Part shown: piece after piece, positions 2,725-61,555 of the stretch
Layout of the letters: each line of letters begins with the position of its first letter
Position numbering within the stretch: position 1 is the first letter of the stretch
Source: Ostreococcus lucimarinus
Lineage: Eukaryota
Strand: one strand, 5' to 3'
Length of the DNA: 64,000 nucleotides
NCBI GenBank assembly: GCA_000092065.1
Contig: CP000600.1
Notes under the pieces: model-generated
The model's input: the letters and a program-made list of their open reading frames with translations, nothing else
The model's database searches: none
Told to the model about the DNA's origin: nothing
Program-made: the position numbers and the translations under genes

Positions 2725-3499
2725 ATGGCGAGCACGAGCTTCGGCAAGAAGGCGTGCGAACTCGTGCGAGAGATCGCGGAGAGCGAGGCCGGGACGCTAC
2801 CGCCGTACAATCAGGATTTAATGCGCACGATCGCCGATCAGTGCGCGGACCACGGCGAGGCTATGCAGACGCTGGCGGTTCAGATTAACGAAGTGAACGA
2901 CGCCGAGGACGACGGCGCCGAGGACGCGGACGCGAGAGAAGATAAGACAGGGTCGTTGCGCACGGGGATGTTCGCGCATCATCAGGTGAGCGCGAGAGAT
3001 GCGGGAATCGAGGCGGCGAATCGAAGACGCGCGAGACGCGAGCGAAACGAATCAAACGAACGAACGAACGAACGAACGACGAACGAGCGACTGACTGCGT
3101 TTGCGTCGCGAATAGGCGATATTGCGGAATAAACGCGCGATGTTGGTGTACCTGAACGAGCGCATGAACAGGATAAAAGATCTTCGATGGCAAATCGGCA
3201 CCGGTTTGCCGGACAACGTGTCCTCCAACCTGAGTCACGGCGAACGCGCCTTCTTCACCAAGTACTCGGAAAATCTGAACGAATACATGCGAGAGGTGGA
3301 TTTGAACTTGACGTTAGATTTAGAACCGCCGAAGCATCACAAGATACAGGTGCGATGCTTGGAAGATCGCGGGGAGTTGTTCACCAGGGACGGCTCGGTG
3401 GATCTCAAGCGCAACACGGTGCACTTGATGTGGAGAGAGGAAGCGCAGCCGCTCATCCGCGAGGGCGTCCTCGAGCAGCTCGACGACGATGGGTGTTAG
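2725..3499 (+). CDS. GINS1: GINS complex subunit 1 (PSF1), two exons: 2725..2985 and 3116..3499, with a 130-nt intron at 2986..3115.
   Basis: Exon 1 (MASTSFGKKACELVREIAESEAGTLPPYNQD...) and exon 2 (RNKRAMLVYLNERMNRIKDLRWQIGTGLPDN...IQVRCLEDRGELF...LIREGVLEQL) align with the PSF1 N-terminal and central regions, including the conserved R-R-x-x-x-A-Y-L-x-x-R-L-x-R-I-x-x-L-R-W segment. Donor CAG|GTGAGC at 2986, branch-like CTGAC, acceptor AATAG|GCG at 3115. Both junctions are phase 0. Confidence 0.8.
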
Positions 3500-21578: not shown

Positions 21579-21708
21579 CCCCTACGCGATGGACGCGCAC
21601 GATTAAGAGATATCTACAGACGACGAATGAAATAATTAATTCCTAGAAAAGTGAGTCTCAAATCACAACAAATTATAAAAGCCACGGCGCGCGTTCGCTC
21701 GGCGCCGT

Positions 21709-21984: not shown

Positions 21985-22511
21985 CGACGCCCGTCGGGCC
22001 TGCGCATCATCGAAACGAAACGCTCAAAGTCAGTCTCCCTCGCGGCGCGAATAGGTTTTATTTTATCTACGCCAGCCATCCACCGCGCGCGTCCCGCGGT
22101 CGTCTCCCGCGCCCCGCGCCCGATCTCGCGTTCGTTTCCGCGCGCGCGCGAGATTTAAAATTATCCCGCGCCCCGTCCTCGCGCCGCCGTCCTCGCCCGA
22201 TCCCGCGCGCGCGCGTCCCTCGTCCGTCGTCGTCGCGCGCGCGTCGCTAGGGTCGTCCCCGTCGTGACGTCGCGCCGCGTTCGCGGTCGCTCGCGTCGTC
22301 GTCGCGCACCTCTCGTCGCTGCGCGCGCGCGCCGGCGGTGGCGGTAAATCTCGTCGTCGTCGTCGTCGTCGTCGCGTGCATCGCGTCGATCGCGTCGCGC
22401 GTCGCGGTGTCCCAATCGCGTCGCCGCGCGCGACGCCCGGCGTCGCCGAGCGAGACCTTCCCGTGAACGCGCCACACGGATCTTTTGAGACCACGAGACG
22501 GCGACGTCCCG

Positions 22512-31400: not shown

Positions 31401-33258
31401 GGGAGTCGAGCATGACCGGCGGCGTTTCCTTGCCTTGCGTGTCGAGCAAGTTGCCCTTCGCACCAAGAGTCATGGCCAAGGACATGACGAGACCCTCGCG
31501 AAGAGGGTCGATGGCGGGGTTGGTAACTTGCGCGAAGCGTTGCTTGAAGTAGTCATAAAGCAAGCGCGGTCGGCCAGACAAGACGGGCATCGGGGTGTCG
31601 TCGCCCATCGACCAAGTGGGTTCGATGGCATCGGACGCCATCGATTCAATGATCATCGTGATGTCTTCGGCGGCGTAACCGGCGCGAGCTTGGCACTCGA
31701 TGAGTTGGATCGGGTCCAGTTGCGTCGCGCCAATGGGTTCGATGCCCTTGACGCGATCGATGGCCTTCATCCATTCGCCGTACGGGAGGCGCGCGGAGAC
31801 TTCCTTCGCGATTTCCGTATTTTCCTTGAACTCGCCCGTCTCCAAATCAGCGTAAATCATCATACCCGGGCCGAGACGGCCCTTGGAGACGACATTGGAC
31901 GCGTTGGACATGACATCACCGAGGACACCAACTTCCGAGGCGACGTAGATGTAATCATCGGACGTGCGCCAGAAGCGCGCCGGGCGCAACCCGTTGCGGT
32001 CGAGGCGGGCGCCGAGCTGCTTGCCATCGGAGAAGACGAGCAACGCTGGACCATCCCACGCTTCTTGCATCCCAGCGTAATAATCGTAGAAATCATGAAC
32101 TTCCGGGAACGTCGCATCGAGTTCGGGGTGGTTGCGGTGCGCTTCTGGCACAAGCAACATCATAGTCTCCGCCGGCGCGCGGCCGGTTCTCACCAGGAGC
32201 TCCGCGACTCTGTCGAGGTTGGCGGAATCGGAGGCAGCCGGATTACAGATCGGGCGGAATTCCGGTTCACGACCGCCCCAGATCGGGTTCTCCATATCAG
32301 CTTCCTTAGACGCCATCCAGTTCAAGTTACCTTGAAGGGTGTTGATCTCACCGTTGTGTCCCAAGAAACGCATCGGTTGCGAGAGTGGCCACTTCGGCGT
32401 CGTGTTCGTGGAGAAACGGCGGTGGTAAATCGAGAACTGCGACTCGTAGTCGGGGTCTTCCAAATCCTTGTAGAACTTGCCCAACACCGCGGATCGAAGC
32501 ATACCCTTGTACACAATCGTGCGGGAGCTCAAGGTGCAAATGTAGAAGCTCTCAGCTAACACGGCGTCGGAGCTCGCCGACTTTTCGCACGTCTTGCGCG
32601 CGATGAACAACTTGCGCTCGAGCTCTTCGCGTTCCAAGCCCGCCCCGTCGACGAGAATCTGTTCGTGCACCGGGCACGTCATCTTCGCGAGCGGACCGAC
32701 GACGGAGTTGTCCACCGGAACCGCACGCCAACCGAGCACCTTGAGGCCTTCGGCGACGCAGCTCGCCTCAAGAATCTTCTTCGCCTCAGCCGCCTTGGCA
32801 CCGTCGGTGGGCAACATAACCATACCGACCGCCGAGGAGCCTTCAGAGAATCCACTGATACCATTCGCCGCGCACCACTTGTCCAAAAGCTTCCACGGAA
32901 TGTGCGTCATGACACCGACACCATCACCAGAGTCGTTGTCCGCCGAGCACGCCCCGCGGTGCTCCATGCACCCGACAGCCATCAAGGAATCTTTCACAGT
33001 CTTGTGCGTGCGCTCACCCTTCAACGAAGCGATGAAACCGACCCCGCACGCATCATGCTCTTCCAAAAGCTGCGTGTTATCCACCGCACCGCCTTCATAC
33101 ACGGGCCAATCGCCGTACACCGACCCTCGCTCCGCCAGGCACACCGTCTTCGCGCGGTCGCGTCCCGGCACGCGCACCGTCGAGCACTTGGGCAACGCCG
33201 CGGGCTTACGCAACGTCACCGGGGACGGAGTAAACTTCTGCGCGATGTAAATGATCAC
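28492..33258 (-). CDS. GLU1: Ferredoxin-dependent glutamate synthase (Fd-GOGAT), single 1588-aa polypeptide.
   Basis: Amidotransferase N-terminus with catalytic Cys (..[10 protein letters not shown]), central domain, FMN/Fe-S domain (..GGTGASP.., Cys cluster) and C-terminal GXGXG beta-helix domain. The length is typical of the Fd type rather than the NADH type. About 70-aa presequence. Confidence 0.9.
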
Positions 33259-33962
33259 ACTCTACCGTCAGTCTTCTTCGTTCGACGTTCGATCGACGCC
33301 TTCGCGCCTCGCCTTCGGCCCGTCTTTTAAACGCGCATTCGCCGTTCGTGATTCGTCGCGGGGTGACTCTTGGAAAACAAGCCCTAACCCCCTTCGCGCG
33401 TCGTCGCGCGCGTCTTACGCACCGCTTGGTTCCCCAACGCGCGCATCGTGCCCGCGCTCGCGCTCGCGACGTTTTTGTTACGCATCGCCTGCGCGTGTGC
33501 ACCATTTTTCGCCCCCACGCGCGCGCGATGGCGACGCGCGCGCGCATCCGTCACCGCGACGGGGCTTACGCGCGCGCCCATCGCTTGCATCGCCTTCGCT
33601 CGCTCGCGCGCCCTTCCGGCGCGCGCACGATCGCGACGACGATCAAAGAATTAACCAACCGTTCGTTCGTCCGCTTCGCGCACGACCGATCGTCAAGTCG
33701 CGACGTCACCGGTCGCGTTCTGACGTCGCGCGCGCGCAATCGCGTCGCCTTCGCGAAACGGTTCCGGTCGCCGTCGTCGTTTTTTTCATCACAAAGGCGA
33801 ATTCGTGTCTTCTCTACGCGAGTTTTGCGATCGACCGCGGTGACGTCGCGCGAGTGGATCGAATGTCGGGTGTCTCGGCACCTCGCCTGTGTGACAGTGT
33901 GACACCTGCGACACGGCCAGCATTGCGCGTCGCGCGCGCGGTGGGACGCGGAAGCCGAAAGA

Positions 33963-37459: not shown

Positions 37460-37792
37460 TGGATCGTCATACTTCTCCGCACCCGCCCTGTGATGGATGA
37501 AACGCGCGCGTCGCTCGGTCAGTCGGCCCGTTCGCCCGGCGAGATCGACTCAAAACTTCCCCATCATCGCCCTCAACCTCCCTCCCGCCGCGCGTCGCGA
37601 CCGCGCACTGCGCGCACACGTACCCTAATCGCTCGTGATTCAACAATCCGAGCACCTGTTTCACCTTCCCCGCCGCCGTTCGCTTCTTCGTCAACCAATC
37701 CTTGATCGCCTGTTGCAACTCCTCCGAGTTCGCCGGCAACTCCTCGTCCTGCGTTCGCCATCGCGGCATCGCGCGCGCGTCGTCAGTCACCA

Positions 37793-53728: not shown

Positions 53729-55903
53729 CTACGTTTGTACGAGAGCGTCCAGAGCTGTGAGGAGCGAGCGAATCTGCACTTTCGGCGCTTGTTCCAATCC
53801 TTTTCTGAATCTCCAGATCAACTTGAGCGCATCGTTGGCGGTATAATTGATCACAATTGGCAGATTTAAAGTTCTGTTACCGCCTTTTAACGATACGACG
53901 AGCGAACCAGGAGATAAAGCCCGAATCGCTGCGCGCGAATTCGGCGCAAACAAGTCCACTGGGACTTCGCGGCCGAGCGCTTCAAGAACCTTTTTCAGCT
54001 CCGATCGAGACAATTCAATTTTCCGCTTCGTGTTCATTAACGGCTCAATGATATGCATGCCATCTTGAGTCAGCATATAAAAGTCATCACGCTCTGATTG
54101 CTCCCAAATCTTGACACCCGACCAAACGCAGCTCATTCGCTTTGCGCCAGGTGAATCTATGCAGTGCTTCTTGACTCCTTCAGCGATATACACGATAGAC
54201 TTCTGTTGATTTGAGCGCGCGTAGAGGCAAGGGGCGATTTTTTCCGAGAATTTATCACCAAGACCAAACTCTTTTGCCAACTTTTTCACCAATGTGCTCG
54301 AAACTTTTGAGTAGACGTGCTTTGGTTCCGTGCGCTCATAAGCGCGGTCGACTTTTTCTGCGGTCGACTCCTTCGCCTGTGGTCCGGGAATCGGCGCCAC
54401 CTTTTTCAATAAGACTGCAAAAAATCCGCCCATGTCTTGTAAGTGAGGTACGAGCCTCATGCAGTGCTGCAATGGGATCGCCGTCGACTTGATGCGTTTT
54501 CCGAGATGGCCCATTCGCGCCAGCGACTGCGCCGGCGGCCACATCGATTTCGCAAACTTTCGCTTCAATCCAATGGGCACGGTCGAAGCTTGACTATCCT
54601 CGTACTTTGGATATTCTACTACGTTCCCTTCGACCATGGTCATCACGTTCCAAGTCGATATTCCCGGTCTGCGCAGTAACTCGGGAATTCGATCAGAAGC
54701 GTCGACAATTTCTAGCGCTCCACCGCACCGTTTGATGAGCTCTGCGACGACAGCCTCGTTTTCCACTGGGTTGAATGAGCACGTACTGTAAACCATATAT
54801 CCACCAACATTAAGGAGTGCCGCGCCACGCTGCGCAATGCGTAGCTGTAGCTTGTGAAGGCCCATGGCGAATTCGGGGCGCCATTCGGACCAAATCTGTG
54901 GGTTTTTCCTAAGCGTTCCGTCACCACTGCACGGAACATCACAAATGATACGATCGTAAGAGCCTTCTGGATATCTTCCTCCGCGTTCAGTCAATGCCTT
55001 ATCGGTGGTAGGTACGTTGATATTTGGATACCATTGAGCTTGGTGCGTCGTCACCATCAAATTCGCAGTGGCGTTGCGAAGCGCTGCACAGCGTCGTACT
55101 AGGAAATAACATCGCATCGGATTAATATCGTTCGCGATGACGCATCCAGACGCCGATCCTTCCTCTCCATTGACGTTGAGTGCCTCAAGTGCCTGCGTAG
55201 TTTTCGATCCAGGACTTGCGCAAAGGTCGAGCACGCGATGGTGCGGCTCGACTTGTAAAATTGCCGCGGGAACCATGGAATCCACCGCCTGTCGAGTGAG
55301 AACGCCGGTATTGTTGCACTTCACCAACCAACGCTGCAAATCTCTCAACATTGGATTTCGAGAGAACTTCAGGCTCATCTTGTCCACGCCGAGCTGCCAT
55401 CCGTCACACCACGGCAGGCGTGTTGGCGGCGGTATCAACCGTCCCCGGTCGTCCCTCGTTTCTCTCGCGTTTTGCAGAAAGTGTTTCGCCACGTTCAGCG
55501 CTTCGCGCACTTCTTCTCGTCTCGACGCCATAACGTTCATCCTAAATGTCACCGGTAAAGGCAATCGAAGGTACCTCAAAAAGTCTCTCCACTCGCCCTC
55601 GTCCACTATGCCCTGTCGTCTGTAGTACGTCTCAAACGACGTCTCCTCGTGCACCGAAAGCGTGCGCGAGAACCAAGGCGCGGACGTCCGCGGAAGCATG
55701 ATCGTTTCTGTCGTCGTCGTCGCCTCGTTCGCGCTGTTTCGTCGCCCAGCGTCATCAGCGTCATCGTCGTTCCTCGTCGCTTTCGCCGCCGCCTCGAGCG
55801 CCCTCGCGCGTTTCCTCGCGCGCACCATGCGCTTCGATCGCGATCGCTTCCCCGACACCGACGCACCGCCGATCGTGTCGTCATTCCACGCGTCGTGCTG
55901 CAT
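53729..55903 (-). CDS. NSUN2: NOL1/NOP2/Sun-family RNA (cytosine-5)-methyltransferase, NSUN2/Trm4-like.
   Basis: FETYYRRQGIVDEGEWRDFLRYLRLPLPVTFRMN, SAM-binding VLDLCASPGSKT, IANDIN, catalytic DRIICDVPCSGDGTLRKNPQIW and STCSFNPVENEAVV motifs. Start placed at the internal ATG at 55903. The ORF-track start at 56131 would overlap the divergent SWIP gene start at 56069. Confidence 0.75.
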   Translation of the reverse strand: MQHDAWNDDTIGGASVSGKRSRSKRMVRARKRARALEAAAKATRNDDDADDAGRRNSANEATTTTETIMLPRTSAPWFSRTLSVHEETSFETYYRRQGIVDEGEWRDFLRYLRLPLPVTFRMNVMASRREEVREALNVAKHFLQNARETRDDRGRLIPPPTRLPWCDGWQLGVDKMSLKFSRNPMLRDLQRWLVKCNNTGVLTRQAVDSMVPAAILQVEPHHRVLDLCASPGSKTTQALEALNVNGEEGSASGCVIANDINPMRCYFLVRRCAALRNATANLMVTTHQAQWYPNINVPTTDKALTERGGRYPEGSYDRIICDVPCSGDGTLRKNPQIWSEWRPEFAMGLHKLQLRIAQRGAALLNVGGYMVYSTCSFNPVENEAVVAELIKRCGGALEIVDASDRIPELLRRPGISTWNVMTMVEGNVVEYPKYEDSQASTVPIGLKRKFAKSMWPPAQSLARMGHLGKRIKSTAIPLQHCMRLVPHLQDMGGFFAVLLKKVAPIPGPQAKESTAEKVDRAYERTEPKHVYSKVSSTLVKKLAKEFGLGDKFSEKIAPCLYARSNQQKSIVYIAEGVKKHCIDSPGAKRMSCVWSGVKIWEQSERDDFYMLTQDGMHIIEPLMNTKRKIELSRSELKKVLEALGREVPVDLFAPNSRAAIRALSPGSLVVSLKGGNRTLNLPIVINYTANDALKLIWRFRKGLEQAPKVQIRSLLTALDALVQT

Positions 55904-56068
55904 CGCGTCGTCGCGCCTCGACGCGTCGACGTCCGCGCGCGCGCGTCTGCAGCGCTCGTCCGCACACGTCGACCGCGGGCGCGGCGAAGCGACGCGAGAG
56001 GCGGCGCGAGCGAGCGCTCGAGCGAGGGCGACGTCGTCAGTCGTCGAATTCTGACGCTCGACCGCGCG

Positions 56069-59000
56069 ATGACGACCGCGAGCCTCGCGTCGCCGCGCGA
56101 CGTCGCGGAGGAGGAGGACCGACGGGACCAACGACCATCGGCGACGAAACGAAGCGATGACGCGGCGTCTACGAGCGAGAACGACGTGCCTGAAGAATAC
56201 GCTGAGAACGCGAGTGCGGTGATACGCGAAACGCTCGATGGCTTCCTCGAGTACGTCGAGACGTGGGCGCAGAAGACGAGGGAGACCGCAGACAACTTGG
56301 GGGAGGAGGGTGTTTCAAATCGCGGGCCGCGCGCGAGCGGGAACGGGGCGAAGGATGCGATCGTCCTGAACGGCGATCCGCGCGAAAATATACGGATTGA
56401 AGATCTCGTCACGTGCGAAAATGCGCTGTTGAGCAAGACGACGATGATTTTAGCGCATTTAGGCGGCGAAGTCGAGCGGTTGAGCGCCGTGGCAGACGAA
56501 ACAATTTATCCGATGCTTACGACTTTCGGCGAGAGAGCGAATGATGCGGACGTGATGTCCGATGCAGAGTTACGAGATGCATTCGTTGGGAAATTAGAGC
56601 CGCTTCAAGACGCACTGTTATTCATGGATCAAGTCAGAGCGGTCGTGTGTAACTTGTTCACGCAACTCACGGTGGTGTATTCGACGTTCGCGGCATACAC
56701 GCCGTATCAAACTGTGCGTTTGGCGTGGTCATTCGATATGCTCGGTCGTGCACTAGCAATTGGAGTCGGAATTGATGAGGTGGTTAGGAACAATAGGGCG
56801 TTGCGGTCGGCGCTGATGAATTTCAAACGCGTGGTGCTGCTCCTTCGAGCCAATCCCGAGCAGTTCGGCATGAACGAAGTCGACGTCGTGAGCTTGGATT
56901 CGGCGGTTGCGATCATCGAAAATCAATTGCTCTCATCTTCATTCTTTGCCTCAGTGCTCACACAGCTCACAGAAACCGAACAACCTGATCGATTTATCAA
57001 GGAGCTCGCCGGCACAACTCTCGAGCTTCTCGAAAGCACGACGGCTCGATTGAATACCGACTCGGAGCGGTTGAACGATAAACGCACACTGCTGTCGTGT
57101 CTTTGCTTGACTATGCTTCATTCAGGATTAGTTCCCGATATAGCCGATAGAAAACTCTGCATGAAGGCGTGGGAAGTCTACAAGGTGTGCGTGCTGGTGT
57201 CGGTGACGACGACGGTTTCAGTGTGTCCAGGGGCAATACTAGAAGCGCATCTATCTCCAGCCGCACGAGAGTGCTTTCCTGATAATGGTTTAGAATCAGT
57301 GATCTCGTTTCGTCGAGAGACGCTCGAGACTCTGGATGAGACTTTCCCTGCGAAGCTCCTCGATTTGTTGTCGGCTTCAGTCGCCTGGCTCACCAAGTTT
57401 ACGGCGACACCAAACGTCTCGCATAGCTTATCGAGCACAATGAACGCTCGCACGAGTTTGTTTCAGGAGGGTATGAGACTGGTAAATCGACTGCGCCACT
57501 ATACTCAGGAGATCATACACCTCCACGTGTCTCTGGAGGCCCCGGTCACGAAGCGGCGGGTGCGACTCATCGCTCGCGCCGTGGAAATGTTGCAAGCCAT
57601 GTGCGAAGCTTTCACTCAAAATCTCAATTTGAGTTTGGAAGTGCAGCACGTGCTGAAATTTCTAGCAGATAGAATACATCGCATGATGGTACGTTTGAAA
57701 CGCTTCTGAGATCGATCGGCTCACATCTGACCTTTTCACGCAGGTTCCTACTCGGGAATTATTAGAAAACAAAATTTCGACGACGACGACGTCGAGTGGA
57801 TGGGAACGCTTAAAGGCTCAAATTTCGTCGGGAAAAGCCGAAAACAATAAACAGGACACCCTCGCGACGGTCAATATCGCAGGTAAGCTTTTCATTCTCC
57901 GTCTAGATGACGTACAAATTAAATTAATTATTTCATTTATTTAGTGCATGTTTTGTCTGGGCCGGCGACTCGAAAAAGGATGCATGTTCTTCGAATCTGC
58001 CTCGATGCGATCCGTGGAGCGAGTCTTCTCAGTGATGAAGATGTCGTGCTCGCATCTGAGTTCGTGGAACTCGTAGAAGTGCTCTCCACGTACCGCAAAA
58101 GCGTTCAAGATCAATGTGATACTTCCTTTTTATTTTTCACGAGGGAATTATTTCCGGTGTGTTTGGCTGATATTTACGTCAAGCCGAACGAATCTGGACG
58201 TCTTACTTTGCTTGTGAGTGCGTTTCGCAATTGTGAAACGTTATTAATGCGTGCTGGAGCGAGCGATAGCGAAGTGGCGACGTTTGACAATTATATTCGA
58301 ACGTCACTGGAGCGAGAAATAATTCAACCGCTTTGTCGAGATATTGAGACAGATTTGAGGTTGCATCTTCATTCTGCGCGCATAGCAGGCGTCATGAACA
58401 CGAATCCGTTCAAGGATGGCGTTCGAGACTTGTCGTTGTTCACGAATCTGCCGCCAATCTACACGTTGAAGCACCAGGTGCGAATATTATTTATTTAATT
58501 AATTGTGGCGAATTTGAAACTGACCGGATTTCGTCCTCGTCGTTGACAGATCGACATTCGTAATCGCGTCGAAGGTTATTTAAATCAGACCTTCCACAAT
58601 CACACGGCGATTGCTCTTCATAACTGGAAGGTGAGTGATAAAATAATTAATTTGTCCTACTTCGCAACCGAGCGAGCTGCCTTTTACGAAAACGACGACT
58701 AACGATCTATTCGCGCGCAGTCTTACGTGGAAATGAGAAATCTTGCGATAGAAAAGTACGGCTTACGCTGCGCCGAGATTGAGCTTCCGAGCCAGACGCT
58801 CGAACAAGGCTTGGATGTGTTGGAGCTGATGCGCAATATCCACGTCTTCGTGTCGAGGTACAACTACAACTTGAACACACAGTGCTTTGTCGAGAAGGCG
58901 AGCGCGGCGCTCGATCGCAAGCATCTGAACACCATAAGTATTCGGCATGTCGCCAACTCTATCAGAACGCACGGAACGGGCATCACGCACACGACCATCA

Positions 59001-59965
59001 ACTTTGCCTATCAGTACCTGGCGCAAAGATTTCAGATTTTCAACCAGTTTCTCTTTGACGACCACATCAGAAGTCAACTCATGAAAGAAGCTCGAATGGT
59101 GCACGCCGAGACAAAGGCTAAGAGTGATACTATCAAGTTAAGCTCAAAGCAAGCAGGATATCGCGCATCGACTGTGGACGAAAAGTTTGAGTACCCAGTC
59201 GAACGCGCCCTTCGAGTGATGCGCGACATTCGAAAGCTCGGTTTATCGAAGGACGGCTCTTCGTTCATCGACGAGTTCCGTGTGTTAGTGACTGAAATCG
59301 GTAATGCGCTCGGTTTTGTTCGCATGGTTCGTCTCGGTGCGATGCACTACAGCACCAACGCCGCCAAGTTTGTACCGAGTGCGCGCGGGTCGAAGTTCGC
59401 CCTCGATGAGAGCCTCGACGCCGACGGTTTGTCCGAGTGGACAAAGACGGCACTGAAAAATCTGCAGAGTGAATTAAAAGCCTTAAGCACAGGCGGTACC
59501 GATGGTACTGACTATTTTCAAGTCCTCGTATCGGTTTTTTCGACCGAGCTTCGAAAGGGTCACGAACACCTAAAAGACTTTTACTTGGTGCTTCCAGCGC
59601 TCACGATGAGCGCCGCTGAAACCATCCTGGCTTCAAAAGACAAGCTCGTGCGACGTGGTAAAGATTCACAGACCGCCACTTTCACCGATGATGGTTTAGC
59701 ACTTGGGATCGTGTACCTGCTGAGCGTCCTCGATCAACACGAAGCCTTCGATGCGCTGCATTGGTTTGAGTCCGCCTCGCACCACTTCGAAGCGGAGGAG
59801 AAGCGCGCAAACGAGGAAACCGGTGGCACTTTCGGCATTTTAGGTCGTAGCATCGACGAAAAGACCAAGCTTCAGGTCAAGTTGGATAAGATTGACGCGT
59901 TAAGGCGCGAGTTTGTACACTTGAAGCATTCACTCGTCGGCGCGCGAAGCTTTGTGAATTTGTAA
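56069..59965 (+). CDS. WASHC4: WASH complex subunit SWIP/WASHC4 orthologue, about 1205 aa, in five exons: 56069..57688, 57744..57882, 57945..58477, 58550..58630 and 58721..59965.
   Basis: The last three exons are collinear with the highly conserved SWIP C-terminal region (...DIETDLRLHLHSARIAGVMNTNPFKDG...|IDIRNRVEGYLNQTFHNHTAIALHNWK|SYVEMRNLAIEKYGL...LPSQTLEQGLDVLELMRNIHVFVSRYNYNLNTQ...HLNTISIRHVANSIRTHGTGITHTTINF...DDGLALGIVYLLSVLDQHEAFDALHWF). Introns are GT-AG with good signals: GTACGT..CTGAC..CACGCAG; GTAAGC..TTTATTTAG; GTGCGA..TTGACAG; GTGAGT..CTAAC..GCGCGCAG. They are short (55-90 nt) and AT-rich, and the reading frame is preserved across all junctions. Confidence 0.7.
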
Positions 59966-60124
59966 TTGTAGACGCCTCGCCGCACTCAGCCACAGACGCT
60001 GTGAAAACCTCAGCTTTTCATCGTCATCTTCCAAACGTCATCGTCCGCCACATCACAGTCGCGCGCGCGTCGTCGTCGTAAAGTAAGTGATACTCTGCTC
60101 CAATACAACATCGCACGCCTCGTC

Positions 60125-61555
60125 ATGTCGTGCCAAGCGATGTTAAACACGCCCGCGCTCGCGCCGGCGGTGACATCCGTCGCCCACCGTCGCCCTAGCC
60201 GCCGAGGTGCTCGCGCGTTGACGCGCGCCAACGCCGGTGGTGCCATGGAGCAGCTCACGTTGAAGCCGATGAAGAAAATTGAAGGCACGGTTCGATTGCC
60301 GGGGTCTAAGTCGCTGTCAAACCGCATTCTGCTCCTCGCGGCGCTCGCAGAAGGAACGACCAAGGTGGAAAACTTGTTGGATAGCGACGACATTCGTTAC
60401 ATGGTTGACGCGCTTAAAGTTCTGGGGCTGTCCTTCACGGAAGACAGAGAGAACAACATTTTGGAAATCACCGGTTGTGGGGGTAAGCTCCCGGTCGAGG
60501 GCGCGGAGTTGTTCCTCGGTAACGCCGGGACGGCGATGCGACCGCTCACCGCCGCCGTGGCTGCGGCGGGTAAAGGCACGTTCATCCTCGATGGTGTCGA
60601 GCGTATGCGTGAAAGACCAATTCAAGATCTTGTTGATGGTTTGGTTCAGCTTGGTGTCAAGGCGGAGTGCACGATGGGTACGGGTTGCCCGCCGGTGAAG
60701 GTTGAGGCGAACGGCTTGCCTGGCGGTCGCGTCGAGCTCAGCGGTTCCGTGAGCTCGCAATACCTCACCGCGCTCCTCATGGCGGCCCCACTTTGCGAAG
60801 GGTCGATTGAAATCGTAATTGTCGATGAGCTCATCTCCAAACCGTACGTTGAGATGACTATCACACTCATGGAACGCTTCGGTGTCAAGGTAGAAAAGGC
60901 GGACGACCTCCAGAGCTTTAAGATTCAAGGCGGACAAAAGTACATCTCCCCGGGCAGTGCATTTGTTGAAGGCGATGCTTCGTCCGCTTCCTACTTCCTC
61001 GCCGGTGCCACCATCACCGGTGGTACCGTCACTGTCATCGGTTGCGGTTCGGAGAGCATCCAAGGCGACACAAACTTTGCGTACACGATGGAGCAAATGG
61101 GCGCGACGCTCGAGTGGGGTCCGAACTCGGTCACCTGCACCGGTCCCAAGGGCCCGCTCAAGGCGATTGATGTGAACATGAACGCCATGCCCGACGCTGC
61201 GATGACTCTTGCCGTCGCTGCACTCTTCGCTGACGGCATCACTACCATTCGTGATGTCGCGAGCTGGCGCGTGAAGGAAACCGAGCGCATGATTGCGATT
61301 TGCACCGAGCTGCGCAAGCTCGGTTGCGACGTCTTCGAAGGCGCGGATTACTGCGTCATCACCCCTCCTCACAAGCTCGACCCCCCGGCCAAGATGAAGG
61401 CCAACGTTGACATCGATACCTACGACGATCACCGCATGGCCATGGCTTTCGCCTTGGCCGCGTGCGGCGACGTCGACGTCGTCATCAACGACCCGAAGTG
61501 CACGAAGAAGACTTTCCCGACGTACTTTGACGTCCTCAAGTCCGTCGCCAAGTGA
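60125..61555 (+). CDS. aroA: 3-phosphoshikimate 1-carboxyvinyltransferase (EPSP synthase) with a plastid-targeting-like N-terminus.
   Basis: [22 protein letters not shown]...[16 protein letters not shown]..., the two-domain architecture, the conserved RPI/KxxR and [12 protein letters not shown] motifs. Confidence 0.9.

What the first reader, a model, noticed from the sequence alone, without database searches (positions are those of the whole stretch)
56069..59965. WASH-complex subunit SWIP/WASHC4 orthologue in a green alga, built from five exons with short AT-rich introns
The C-terminal 600 aa align residue-for-residue with the most conserved block of metazoan and amoebozoan SWIP (LPSQTLEQGLDVLE, SRYNYNLN, IRH.ANSIRTHGTGI). 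The WASH complex is absent from land plants and fungi, so a full-length subunit here points to retention of WASH-dependent endosomal actin regulation in this lineage. The gene has four introns of 55-90 nt that are much more AT-rich than the surrounding ~65% GC DNA (for example TTTTCATTCTCCGTCTAGATGACGTACAAATTAAATTAATTATTTCATTTATTTAG). Almost every other gene in the window is intronless. This raises the question of whether these are ancient introns retained in a conserved gene or members of a lineage-specific intron family.
Basis: partly seen in the sequence, partly recalled or inferred. Interest (0 to 1): 0.7.

Follow-up and report, generated by a model that had tools for sequence, protein, structure and literature searches.

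The report
SWIP (WASHC4) gene of Ostreococcus lucimarinus
This is an intact, selectively maintained gene for SWIP, a subunit of the WASH actin-regulating complex, in the tiny marine green alga Ostreococcus lucimarinus; its presence there was already published, and the only fresh detail is a conserved AT-rich block in three of its four short introns.

Summary
Splicing five exons (56069-59965, + strand) removes four GT..AG introns of 55, 62, 72 and 90 nt. The product is one 1205-aa ORF that matches all three SWIP/WASHC4 Pfam domains end to end (E 6e-69, 4e-124, 6e-42), with no CYFIP hit. The window matches Ostreococcus lucimarinus CCE9901. Six divergent Ostreococcus sequence types keep the same four intron positions, exact exon lengths and splice sites. 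dN/dS is 0.08-0.11, so the gene is functional.

The identity is not new. Kollmar 2012 and Yanagisawa 2013 report that O. lucimarinus encodes WASH, Arp2/3 and all five WASH regulatory complex subunits. WASH also survives in mosses, lycophytes and conifers, so "absent from land plants" is overstated.

The AT-richness claim is only partly right. Window GC is 59.5%, not 65%, the gene's exons are 43-54% GC, and only introns 2 and 3 are clearly AT-rich.

The introns are singletons, not a repeat family. A 23-mer from intron 2 occurs in metagenomes only at orthologous SWIP loci (14/14). Introns 3 and 4 are not at animal intron positions.

A conserved AATTAATT-containing block in introns 2-4 is a minor new detail. 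No transcript evidence could be obtained.

The parts
55904..56068 (.). 165-nt divergent intergenic region between the NSUN2-like tRNA methyltransferase gene (- strand) and SWIP (+ strand); presumed shared promoter region
   Evidence: Gene calls on identical metagenome contigs place the NSUN2-like start 165 nt upstream of the SWIP ATG. There is no in-frame ATG upstream of 56069. A promoter role is inferred, not tested.
56069..57688 (+). Exon 1, codons 1-540 (most of the WASH-4_N domain)
   Evidence: The same ATG is used by the 546-aa ORF calls on hundreds of environmental contigs.
57689..57743 (+). Intron 1: 55 nt, phase 0, GTACGT..CAG, GC 0.49, CTGAC branch-point-like motif at 57727-57731
   Evidence: Position and GT..AG are conserved in 6 sequence types; length ranges 55-64 nt.
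57744..57882 (+). Exon 2, 139 nt
   Evidence: Length is exactly conserved in all clades examined.
57883..57944 (+). Intron 2: 62 nt, phase 1, GTAAGC..TAG, GC 0.26, no CTRAC motif. The AT block at 57916-57943 forms the 3' end of the intron.
   Evidence: The 23-mer AATTAATTATTTCATTTATTTAG is identical in clades with only 63-88% protein identity, and in metagenomes it is found only at orthologous loci.
57945..58477 (+). Exon 3, 533 nt
   Evidence: Length is exactly conserved. JGI names the corresponding 172-aa ORF calls 'WASH complex subunit 7'.
58478..58549 (+). Intron 3: 72 nt, phase 0, GTGCGA..CAG, GC 0.375. AT block at 58483-58504 lies directly after the 5' splice site; CTGAC at 58520-58524.
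58550..58630 (+). Exon 4, 81 nt (27 codons)
   Evidence: Length is exactly conserved; nucleotide identity 0.77-0.85 between clades.
58631..58720 (+). Intron 4: 90 nt, phase 0, GTGAGT..CAG, GC 0.44. AT block at 58638-58653 lies directly after the 5' splice site; CTAAC at 58699-58703.
58721..59965 (+). Exon 5, codons 792-1205 plus the stop codon (rest of WASH-7_mid, and WASH-7_C)
   Evidence: 46-47% identity to animal WASHC4.

Best explanation
The region is the nuclear gene for SWIP (WASHC4, 'WASH complex subunit 7') of Ostreococcus lucimarinus.

Gene expression. It is transcribed from a short divergent intergenic region shared with an NSUN2-like gene. The pre-mRNA needs four short spliceosomal introns removed to give a 1205-aa protein.

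Protein role, by homology. SWIP is the large scaffold subunit of the pentameric WASH regulatory complex, the counterpart of CYFIP/Sra1 in the WAVE complex. With strumpellin, FAM21, CCDC53 and WASH1 it controls Arp2/3-dependent actin patches on endosomes.

Introns. They are old singleton introns fixed before the Ostreococcus clades diverged. Introns 1, 3 and 4 use the canonical Mamiellophyceae CTRAC branch motif. Intron 2 resembles the short, AT-rich, motif-less 'BOC1-type' introns. I infer that the conserved AU-rich blocks act as intron-definition or splicing-enhancer signals. Two analogies support this: the U-rich elements that TIA-1/Nam8/UBP1-type proteins bind next to weak 5' splice sites, and the AU-richness needed to recognise plant introns. 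The blocks lie just downstream of the 5' splice sites of introns 3 and 4, and they replace the branch/polypyrimidine region of intron 2.

Shown here: gene structure, family membership, conservation and purifying selection. Inferred: complex assembly, endosomal function and the role of the AT blocks.
For: - Spliced ORF of 1205 aa.
- Pfam: WASH-4_N 6e-69 (66-647; model 7-572 of 572), WASH-7_mid 3.6e-124 (1-343 of 346), WASH-7_C 6.2e-42 (1-173 of 175). Nothing else at E<=0.01.
- Organism: three window proteins are identical to O. lucimarinus CCE9901 RefSeq entries.
- Synteny NSUN2-SWIP-EPSPS is conserved in other Ostreococcus clades.
- Intron positions, GT..AG, exon lengths 139/533/81 and branch motifs are conserved in six sequence types, while intron lengths vary by non-multiples of 3.
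- The spliced orthologue from L021 is an intact ORF of about 1201 aa.
- dN/dS is 0.08-0.11 with saturated synonymous sites between clades.
- Retaining any intron truncates the protein.
- AATTAATT occurs 4 times in the window against 0.34 expected, and 3 of these are in introns 2-4.
- The intron 2 23-mer is perfectly conserved across clades with about 73% nucleotide identity.
- Literature: all five WASH complex subunits are reported in O. lucimarinus (PMC3689024); WASH and Arp2/3 are reported in Ostreococcus (PMC3298513); intron classes of Mamiellophyceae are described in PMC3879977 and PMC3491373.
Against: - No transcript evidence. No spliced Ostreococcus product spanning any junction was found in the protein collection.
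- The exact 1205-aa product is not on record, so the reference annotation may be absent or different.
- The other four subunits were not re-found here; that rests on the literature.
- There is no biochemical or cell-biological evidence for a WASH complex, or for classical endosomal sorting, in this alga, which is about 1 micrometre across.
- The function of the AT blocks is pure inference. AT-rich low-complexity sequence aligns easily, and a lower mutation rate could contribute to its apparent conservation.
Confidence: 0.92

Rival explanations
1. The gene is a decaying relic or pseudogene, like the fragmentary WASH genes reported in some angiosperms, and is not a working subunit.
For: WASH complex genes are widely lost or fragmented in the plant kingdom (PMC3689024; PMC3298513). 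No transcript evidence was obtained here.
Against: The ORF is intact in the window and in a divergent clade. Exon lengths are exactly conserved and Pfam coverage is full. dN/dS is 0.08-0.11, both within the species complex and between clades. The locus is present with near-identical sequence in hundreds of environmental contigs.
Confidence: 0.02
2. The exon-intron model is wrong in detail, for example through different splice sites, a retained intron or additional small exons.
For: The model rests on sequence signals and comparison only. The exact product is not in the protein collection.
Against: Each junction has GT..AG exactly where the frame must be restored, and no alternative keeps the ORF open. 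Flanking codons align without gaps to animal SWIP at introns 3 and 4. Boundaries are conserved in six sequence types, while intron interiors diverge and change length by non-multiples of 3.
Confidence: 0.05
3. The four introns belong to a lineage-specific mobile intron family, like the introner elements of Micromonas.
For: Three introns share an AATTAATT-containing AT block. Introner elements exist in the sister genus Micromonas (PMC3879977).
Against: The four introns show no alignable similarity beyond the splice sites and the short AT block. The 23-mer of intron 2 occurs in metagenome contigs only at orthologous SWIP loci, 14 of 14. AATTAATT is absent from the other candidate introns of the window. 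All four positions predate the divergence of the Ostreococcus clades. Introner elements are reported absent from mamiellophycean genomes other than Micromonas, and they prefer high-GC regions.
Confidence: 0.02
4. The conserved AT blocks are a gene-specific regulatory device, not generic AU-rich splicing signals. Examples would be regulated intron retention with NMD to set SWIP dosage, or pairing between the complementary blocks of introns 2 and 4.
For: The blocks are conserved although synonymous sites are saturated. Within the species complex, introns differ at 4.7% of sites against 13.7% at synonymous sites. The intron 2 and intron 4 blocks are 15/16 complementary (pair I7). Retention of any intron gives an early stop.
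Against: No covariation is available, because both partners are simply conserved. An all-A-U 16-mer duplex is weak, and many equally long inverted pairs occur by chance in the same 5 kb. Stops are unavoidable in any AT-rich sequence. The same octamer also sits in an ordinary 3' intergenic AT island.
Confidence: 0.2

Closest known systems
SWIP / WASHC4 (KIAA1033) of animals and Dictyostelium, subunit of the WASH regulatory complex
   Same: Same three-domain architecture (WASH-4_N, WASH-7_mid, WASH-7_C) over the full length. 1205 aa against about 1170 aa in animals. 46-47% identity over the C-terminal 410 aa.
   Different: A divergent, partly low-complexity N-terminal stretch of about 65 aa lies outside the Pfam match. 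The gene has 4 introns, against 13-15 in just the C-terminal part covered by the partial animal gene models (649-715 aa), and none of the comparable positions is shared. Function in a wall-less picoalga about 1 micrometre across is untested.
Published WASH complex inventory of Ostreococcus lucimarinus (Kollmar et al. 2012, PMC3298513; Yanagisawa, Zhang and Szymanski 2013, PMC3689024)
   Same: Same organism and same conclusion: a complete WASH regulatory complex and Arp2/3 are retained.
   Different: In the passages I read, those papers do not describe the SWIP exon-intron structure or its intron sequences.
CYFIP1/Sra1/PIR121 of the WAVE regulatory complex
   Same: Regarded as the structural analogue of SWIP in the sister complex (Jia et al. 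2010, as cited in PMC3689024).
   Different: No sequence-level match: no CYFIP family hit at E<=0.01. The fold was not compared here.
BOC1 introns of Mamiellophyceae (short, AT-rich, no branch motif, confined to the low-GC region of the big outlier chromosome)
   Same: Intron 2 (62 nt, 26% GC, no CTRAC) fits the length, composition and signal-poor criteria. Intron 3 fits length and GC.
   Different: The window has normal GC (59.5%) and single-ORF neighbours, so it is not a BOC1-like region. Introns 1, 3 and 4 carry the canonical CTRAC branch motif.
Canonical Mamiellophyceae introns (donor AG|GTGCGT, branch NCTGAC / GACTGACG)
   Same: Introns 1, 3 and 4 have GTRNG donors and CTGAC/CTAAC 13-26 nt from the acceptor, conserved across clades.
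   Different: They are shorter and more AT-rich than the candidate canonical introns elsewhere in the window (130-185 nt, GC 0.58-0.68). They also carry an extra conserved AT block.

Membership tests
SWIP / WASHC4 (WASH complex subunit 4/7) | WASH-4_N, WASH-7_mid and WASH-7_C domains, in that order, each above the Pfam gathering score | tested here: met
   233.5, 414.8 and 143.7 bits against a cutoff of 25. Each covers nearly the whole model.
SWIP / WASHC4 (WASH complex subunit 4/7) | Full-length protein of about 1100-1200 aa, with an intact ORF under purifying selection | tested here: met
   1205 aa. The orthologue from L021 is intact. dN/dS is 0.08-0.11.
SWIP / WASHC4 (WASH complex subunit 4/7) | Not the paralogous or analogous CYFIP/PIR121 family | tested here: met
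   No CYFIP or any other family at E<=0.01.
SWIP / WASHC4 (WASH complex subunit 4/7) | Co-occurrence with WASH1, FAM21, strumpellin, CCDC53 and Arp2/3 in the same genome | not tested
   The genome outside the window could not be searched with these tools. The literature reports all five subunits and Arp2/3 in O. lucimarinus.
SWIP / WASHC4 (WASH complex subunit 4/7) | Physical assembly into the pentameric complex and endosomal localisation | not testable with these tools
   Needs co-purification or imaging.
SWIP / WASHC4 (WASH complex subunit 4/7) | Spliced mRNA exists with the predicted junctions | tested here: inconclusive
   No junction-spanning Ostreococcus product was found in the protein collection. 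Comparative evidence supports the junctions.
Introner elements (repeat introns, Micromonas type) | Many near-identical copies at non-orthologous loci | tested here: not met
   The introns are dissimilar to each other. The intron 2 23-mer is found only at orthologous SWIP loci, 14/14.
BOC1 introns of Mamiellophyceae | Short (<75 nt), <43% GC, no branch-point motif | tested here: met
   Met by intron 2 only (62 nt, 26% GC, no CTRAC). Intron 3 meets length and GC but has CTGAC. Introns 1 and 4 do not meet the criteria.
BOC1 introns of Mamiellophyceae | Located in the low-GC BOC1 region, whose genes carry many such introns | tested here: not met
   Window GC is 0.595, typical of normal chromosomes. 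The neighbouring genes are single ORFs. The chromosome identity was not determined directly.
Canonical Mamiellophyceae spliceosomal introns | GT..AG with a GTRNG-type donor and an NCTGAC-type branch motif upstream of the acceptor | tested here: met
   Introns 1, 3 and 4 have CTGAC/CTAAC 13-26 nt from the 3' splice site, conserved across clades. Intron 2 lacks the motif.

The most novel reading that the evidence does not exclude
The AATTAATT-containing AU-rich blocks in three consecutive SWIP introns are kept across all Ostreococcus clades even though synonymous sites are saturated. They could be a previously undescribed intronic signal in Mamiellophyceae. One possibility is a splicing enhancer that lets BOC1-like short AT-rich introns work outside the outlier chromosome. 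Another is a gene-specific switch that controls SWIP dosage through intron retention.
Probability: 0.2. Interest if true: 0.4.

Novelty: already known. Interest (0 to 1): 0.2.

Why it matters
The gene confirms that Ostreococcus keeps the WASH scaffold subunit, unlike angiosperms, fungi and reportedly its relative Micromonas. That makes it a minimal photosynthetic cell in which WASH/Arp2/3 function could be studied. This was already stated in the literature in 2012-2013, so the finding adds no new biology at the protein level.

The intron analysis adds a small, testable point. In an intron-poor genome, four short introns have been held at fixed positions and nearly fixed lengths, and they carry conserved AU-rich blocks. 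This bears on how short AT-rich introns are recognised in Mamiellophyceae.

Tried and rejected
- The full-length 1205-aa query in the search for homologous proteins returned nothing. This looks like a candidate-cap artefact, because the exon 5 query found 244 homologues. Hits in that tool were all 721 aa or shorter, so full-length annotated proteins could not be seen.
That search and structure prediction of the whole protein were therefore not done.
- I tried to see the NCBI annotation of the locus through the look-up of encoding contigs. Only metagenome contigs with prokaryote-style gene calls were returned.
- Animal genomic loci: P0102 was not on record and the P0123 gene was too long. Crab and bird loci worked.
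- Longer members of the exon-3 cluster looked as if they might be spliced transcripts. They turned out to be exon-1 fragments.
- The junction-spanning query found no spliced Ostreococcus product.
- A pattern scan for other introns in the window was too noisy to count introns reliably.
- Rfam found no RNA family, such as an intronic snoRNA, in 55500-60500.
- No PDB sequence relative was found.
- Literature searches for Derivery and Gautreau 2010, and for 'Ostreococcus' together with 'strumpellin', found nothing in the held library.
Full report
**1. Observation**

Reading 55500-60500 and listing ORFs shows three long same-strand ORFs: 55649-57709, 57944-58498 and 58727-59965. They are separated by short stretches that carry stop codons.

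Joining 56069-57688, 57744-57882, 57945-58477, 58550-58630 and 58721-59965 gives a 3618-nt CDS with one terminal stop.

| Intron | Coordinates | Length | Ends | GC | Position in CDS |
|---|---|---|---|---|---|
| 1 | 57689-57743 | 55 nt | GTACGT..CAG | 0.49 | after codon 540, phase 0 |
| 2 | 57883-57944 | 62 nt | GTAAGC..TAG | 0.26 | in codon 587, phase 1 |
| 3 | 58478-58549 | 72 nt | GTGCGA..CAG | 0.375 | after codon 764, phase 0 |
| 4 | 58631-58720 | 90 nt | GTGAGT..CAG | 0.44 | after codon 791, phase 0 |

Retaining any single intron produces a stop 7-24 codons later. ATG 56069 is the first in-frame ATG, and gene callers use the same start on identical environmental contigs.

The composition statement needs correcting. 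The window is 59.5% GC, the neighbouring kilobases are 57-59%, and the SWIP exons are only 43-54%. Only introns 2 and 3 stand out as AT-rich overall.

**2. Identity of the protein**

Pfam gives three hits and nothing else at E<=0.01:
- WASH-4_N: E 6e-69, residues 66-647, model positions 7-572 of 572.
- WASH-7_mid: E 3.6e-124, residues 648-1011, model 1-343 of 346.
- WASH-7_C: E 6.2e-42, residues 1032-1202, model 1-173 of 175.

The exon 5 product is 46-47% identical to animal 'WASH complex subunit 4' proteins. No relative with a solved structure was found by sequence.

**3. Organism and locus**

Three window proteins are residue-for-residue identical to Ostreococcus lucimarinus CCE9901 RefSeq entries XP_001422715, XP_001422564 and XP_001422725, which lie on a chromosome of about 549 kb.

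The same locus occurs in hundreds of marine metagenome contigs. There, prokaryote-style gene callers split SWIP into ORFs of 546, 172 and 410 aa. JGI names the 172-aa and 410-aa ORFs 'WASH complex subunit 7' and the 546-aa ORF 'hypothetical protein'.

The exact 1205-aa product is not in the protein collection. I could not see how, or whether, the reference annotation models this gene.

**4. Comparative test of the gene model**

Orthologous loci from other Ostreococcus sequence types were fetched. Their exon 5 protein identity to the window is 84%, 81% and 77%. An additional type is 95.6% identical at the nucleotide level. The gene order NSUN2-like, SWIP, EPSP synthase is conserved.

Findings:
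- All four introns sit at the same positions in every type.
- Exons 2, 3 and 4 are exactly 139, 533 and 81 nt everywhere.
- GT..AG is kept.
- Intron lengths vary only slightly, and by non-multiples of 3: 55-64, 60-62, 69-72 and 88-94 nt.
- Intron interiors diverge more than exons: 0.42-0.67 identity against 0.66-0.85.
- Splicing the L021 orthologue at the homologous sites gives an intact ORF of about 1201 aa.

A Nei-Gojobori estimate gives dN/dS = 0.10 against the 95.6% type and 0.08-0.11 against the distant clades. Synonymous sites are saturated between the distant clades (pS 0.67-0.76). The gene is therefore under strong purifying selection and is not a relic.

No transcript-level evidence could be obtained. 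No Ostreococcus product in the collection spans a junction.

**5. What kind of introns**

The literature describes three intron classes in Mamiellophyceae (PMC3879977 and PMC3491373):
- Canonical singleton introns, with donor AG|GTGCGT and branch motif NCTGAC (GACTGACG in Ostreococcus).
- BOC1 introns: under 75 nt, under 43% GC, no branch motif, confined to the low-GC part of the big outlier chromosome.
- Repeat 'introner elements', found in Micromonas only.

How the SWIP introns fit:
- Introns 1, 3 and 4 carry CTGAC, CTGAC and CTAAC at 13, 26 and 18 nt from the acceptor. These motifs are conserved across clades, so the three introns are canonical in their signals, although short.
- Intron 2 has no such motif and is 26% GC. 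It looks like a BOC1-type intron, yet the window has normal GC and single-ORF neighbours.
- They are not a repeat family. The four introns do not align with each other beyond the splice sites and an AT block.
- The 23-mer at the 3' end of intron 2 (AATTAATTATTTCATTTATTTAG) occurs in the metagenome collection in 14 stretches. All 14 are orthologous SWIP loci.

**6. Age of the introns**

I reconstructed exon boundaries of the partial SWIP genes of a crab (Portunus, L027) and a bird (Charadrius, L028) from genomic DNA. I then mapped them onto the alga through a multiple protein alignment.

The two animals share many positions with each other (equivalents of alga residues 674, 710/711, 768 phase 1, 820, 883 and 1119 phase 1). 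None coincides with introns 3 (764, phase 0) or 4 (791, phase 0). The nearest is 4 codons and one base away. Introns 1 and 2 lie outside the animal fragments or at their edge.

Several uncultured eukaryotes have single ORFs that run across all four positions (for example P0260, 99% query coverage).

So the introns predate the Ostreococcus radiation and are not shared with animals. Whether they are ancient and lost elsewhere, or gained in the green lineage, needs gene structures from other algae and early-diverging plants.

**7. The conserved AT blocks**

AATTAATT occurs four times in the 64-kb window against 0.34 expected (0 of 100 shuffles reach 4). Three of the four copies lie in introns 2, 3 and 4. 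The fourth is in an ordinary AT-rich 3' intergenic island at 21634.

- In introns 3 and 4 the block starts 6-8 nt after the 5' splice site (58483-58504 and 58638-58653).
- In intron 2 the block forms the last 29 nt (57916-57943).
- Across six sequence types these blocks, the splice sites and the branch motifs are the only conserved intron columns.
- The intron 2 23-mer is identical in clades with about 73% nucleotide identity over the gene.
- Within the species complex, introns differ at 4.7% of sites against 13.7% at synonymous sites.

I infer AU-rich intron-definition or splicing-enhancer elements. The analogies are the U-rich enhancers next to weak 5' splice sites bound by TIA-1/Nam8/UBP1-type proteins, the AU-richness requirement of plant introns, and the GC drop proposed to mark BOC1 introns. 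This is inference only.

The intron 2 and intron 4 blocks are 15/16 complementary (pair I7). Comparable inverted pairs are common by chance in the same 5 kb, and no covariation is available.

**8. Comparison with what is known, and novelty**

- Kollmar et al. 2012 (PMC3298513) identified WASH and Arp2/3 in Ostreococcus species but not in Micromonas, Chlorella, Chlamydomonas or Volvox. They also found WASH in Physcomitrella, Selaginella and conifers.
- Yanagisawa et al. [quoted passage not shown]
- Bock et al. 2021 (PMC8245530) detect WASH subunits 1 and 4 in other prasinophyte datasets.

The homologue list drops from 77% identity (other Ostreococcus types) straight to 47%. That is consistent with the reported absence from Micromonas, but I did not test it directly.

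**9. Verdict**

This is a real, functional and ordinary gene whose identity is already known. The intron architecture, and the conserved AU-rich blocks in particular, is a modest new detail worth a genome-wide check, not a discovery. Interest 0.2.

Noticed in passing
window 57921-57936 and 58638-58653: The AT block of intron 2 (AAATTAATTATTTCAT) and that of intron 4 (ATAAAATAATTAATTT) are 15/16 reverse-complementary, 701 nt apart, and bracket exons 3-4. It is probably a by-product of the palindromic AATTAATT core; no covariation is available.
   Followed up: partly
window 21634-21641: The only AATTAATT outside the SWIP introns lies in the AT-rich convergent intergenic region between a lysyl-tRNA synthetase gene (+, ends 21578) and a small minus-strand gene. 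Its flank (AATTAATTATTTCATT on the minus strand) resembles the intron 2 block.
   Followed up: partly
L026 198-1679 and L030 (an Ostreococcus clade with about 81% exon 5 identity): In this clade intron 4 is 90 nt (a multiple of 3) and free of in-frame stops, so gene callers read through it and report a 493-aa ORF. The splice signals are nevertheless conserved.
   Followed up: partly
window 33238-33422(-), 37488-37623(-), 2986-3115(+), about 21985-22056(-): These are candidate canonical GC-rich introns in other genes: the 5' end of the glutamate synthase gene, a TFIIF-beta-like gene and others. They have GTGCGT-type donors and ACTGAC branch motifs. They are 130-185 nt with GC 0.58-0.68, unlike the short AT-rich SWIP introns. 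Not verified.
   Followed up: no
window 60125-61555: EPSP synthase: the RefSeq protein XP_001422572 is 436 aa, starting at Met41 of the ORF. The ORF from the upstream ATG is 476 aa with a transit-peptide-like N-terminus, and most environmental gene calls use that longer form. The reference start may be annotated too far downstream.
   Followed up: no
one search hit list (homologues of window 58727-59965): Identity falls from 77% (other Ostreococcus types) directly to 47%, with no intermediate class that would fit Bathycoccus or Micromonas. This is consistent with the reported loss of WASH/Arp2/3 in Micromonas. Bathycoccus status is unknown.
   Followed up: no
window 57689-58720 compared with L039: Between O. 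lucimarinus-like types that are 95.6% identical, the four introns differ at 4.7% of sites while synonymous sites differ at 13.7%. The introns evolve more slowly than silent coding sites.
   Followed up: partly
window 53729-61555; L021, L022, L026: The gene order NSUN2-like methyltransferase (-), SWIP (+), EPSP synthase (+) is conserved in all Ostreococcus clades recovered. A divergent NSUN2-SWIP spacer of only about 165 nt is present in the window and in identical environmental contigs.
   Followed up: partly
(tool behaviour): The full-length query found nothing, whereas the exon 5 query found 244 homologues. No listed hit exceeded 721 aa, so full-length annotated SWIP proteins, including any O. 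lucimarinus RefSeq model, appear to be invisible to that search.
   Followed up: no
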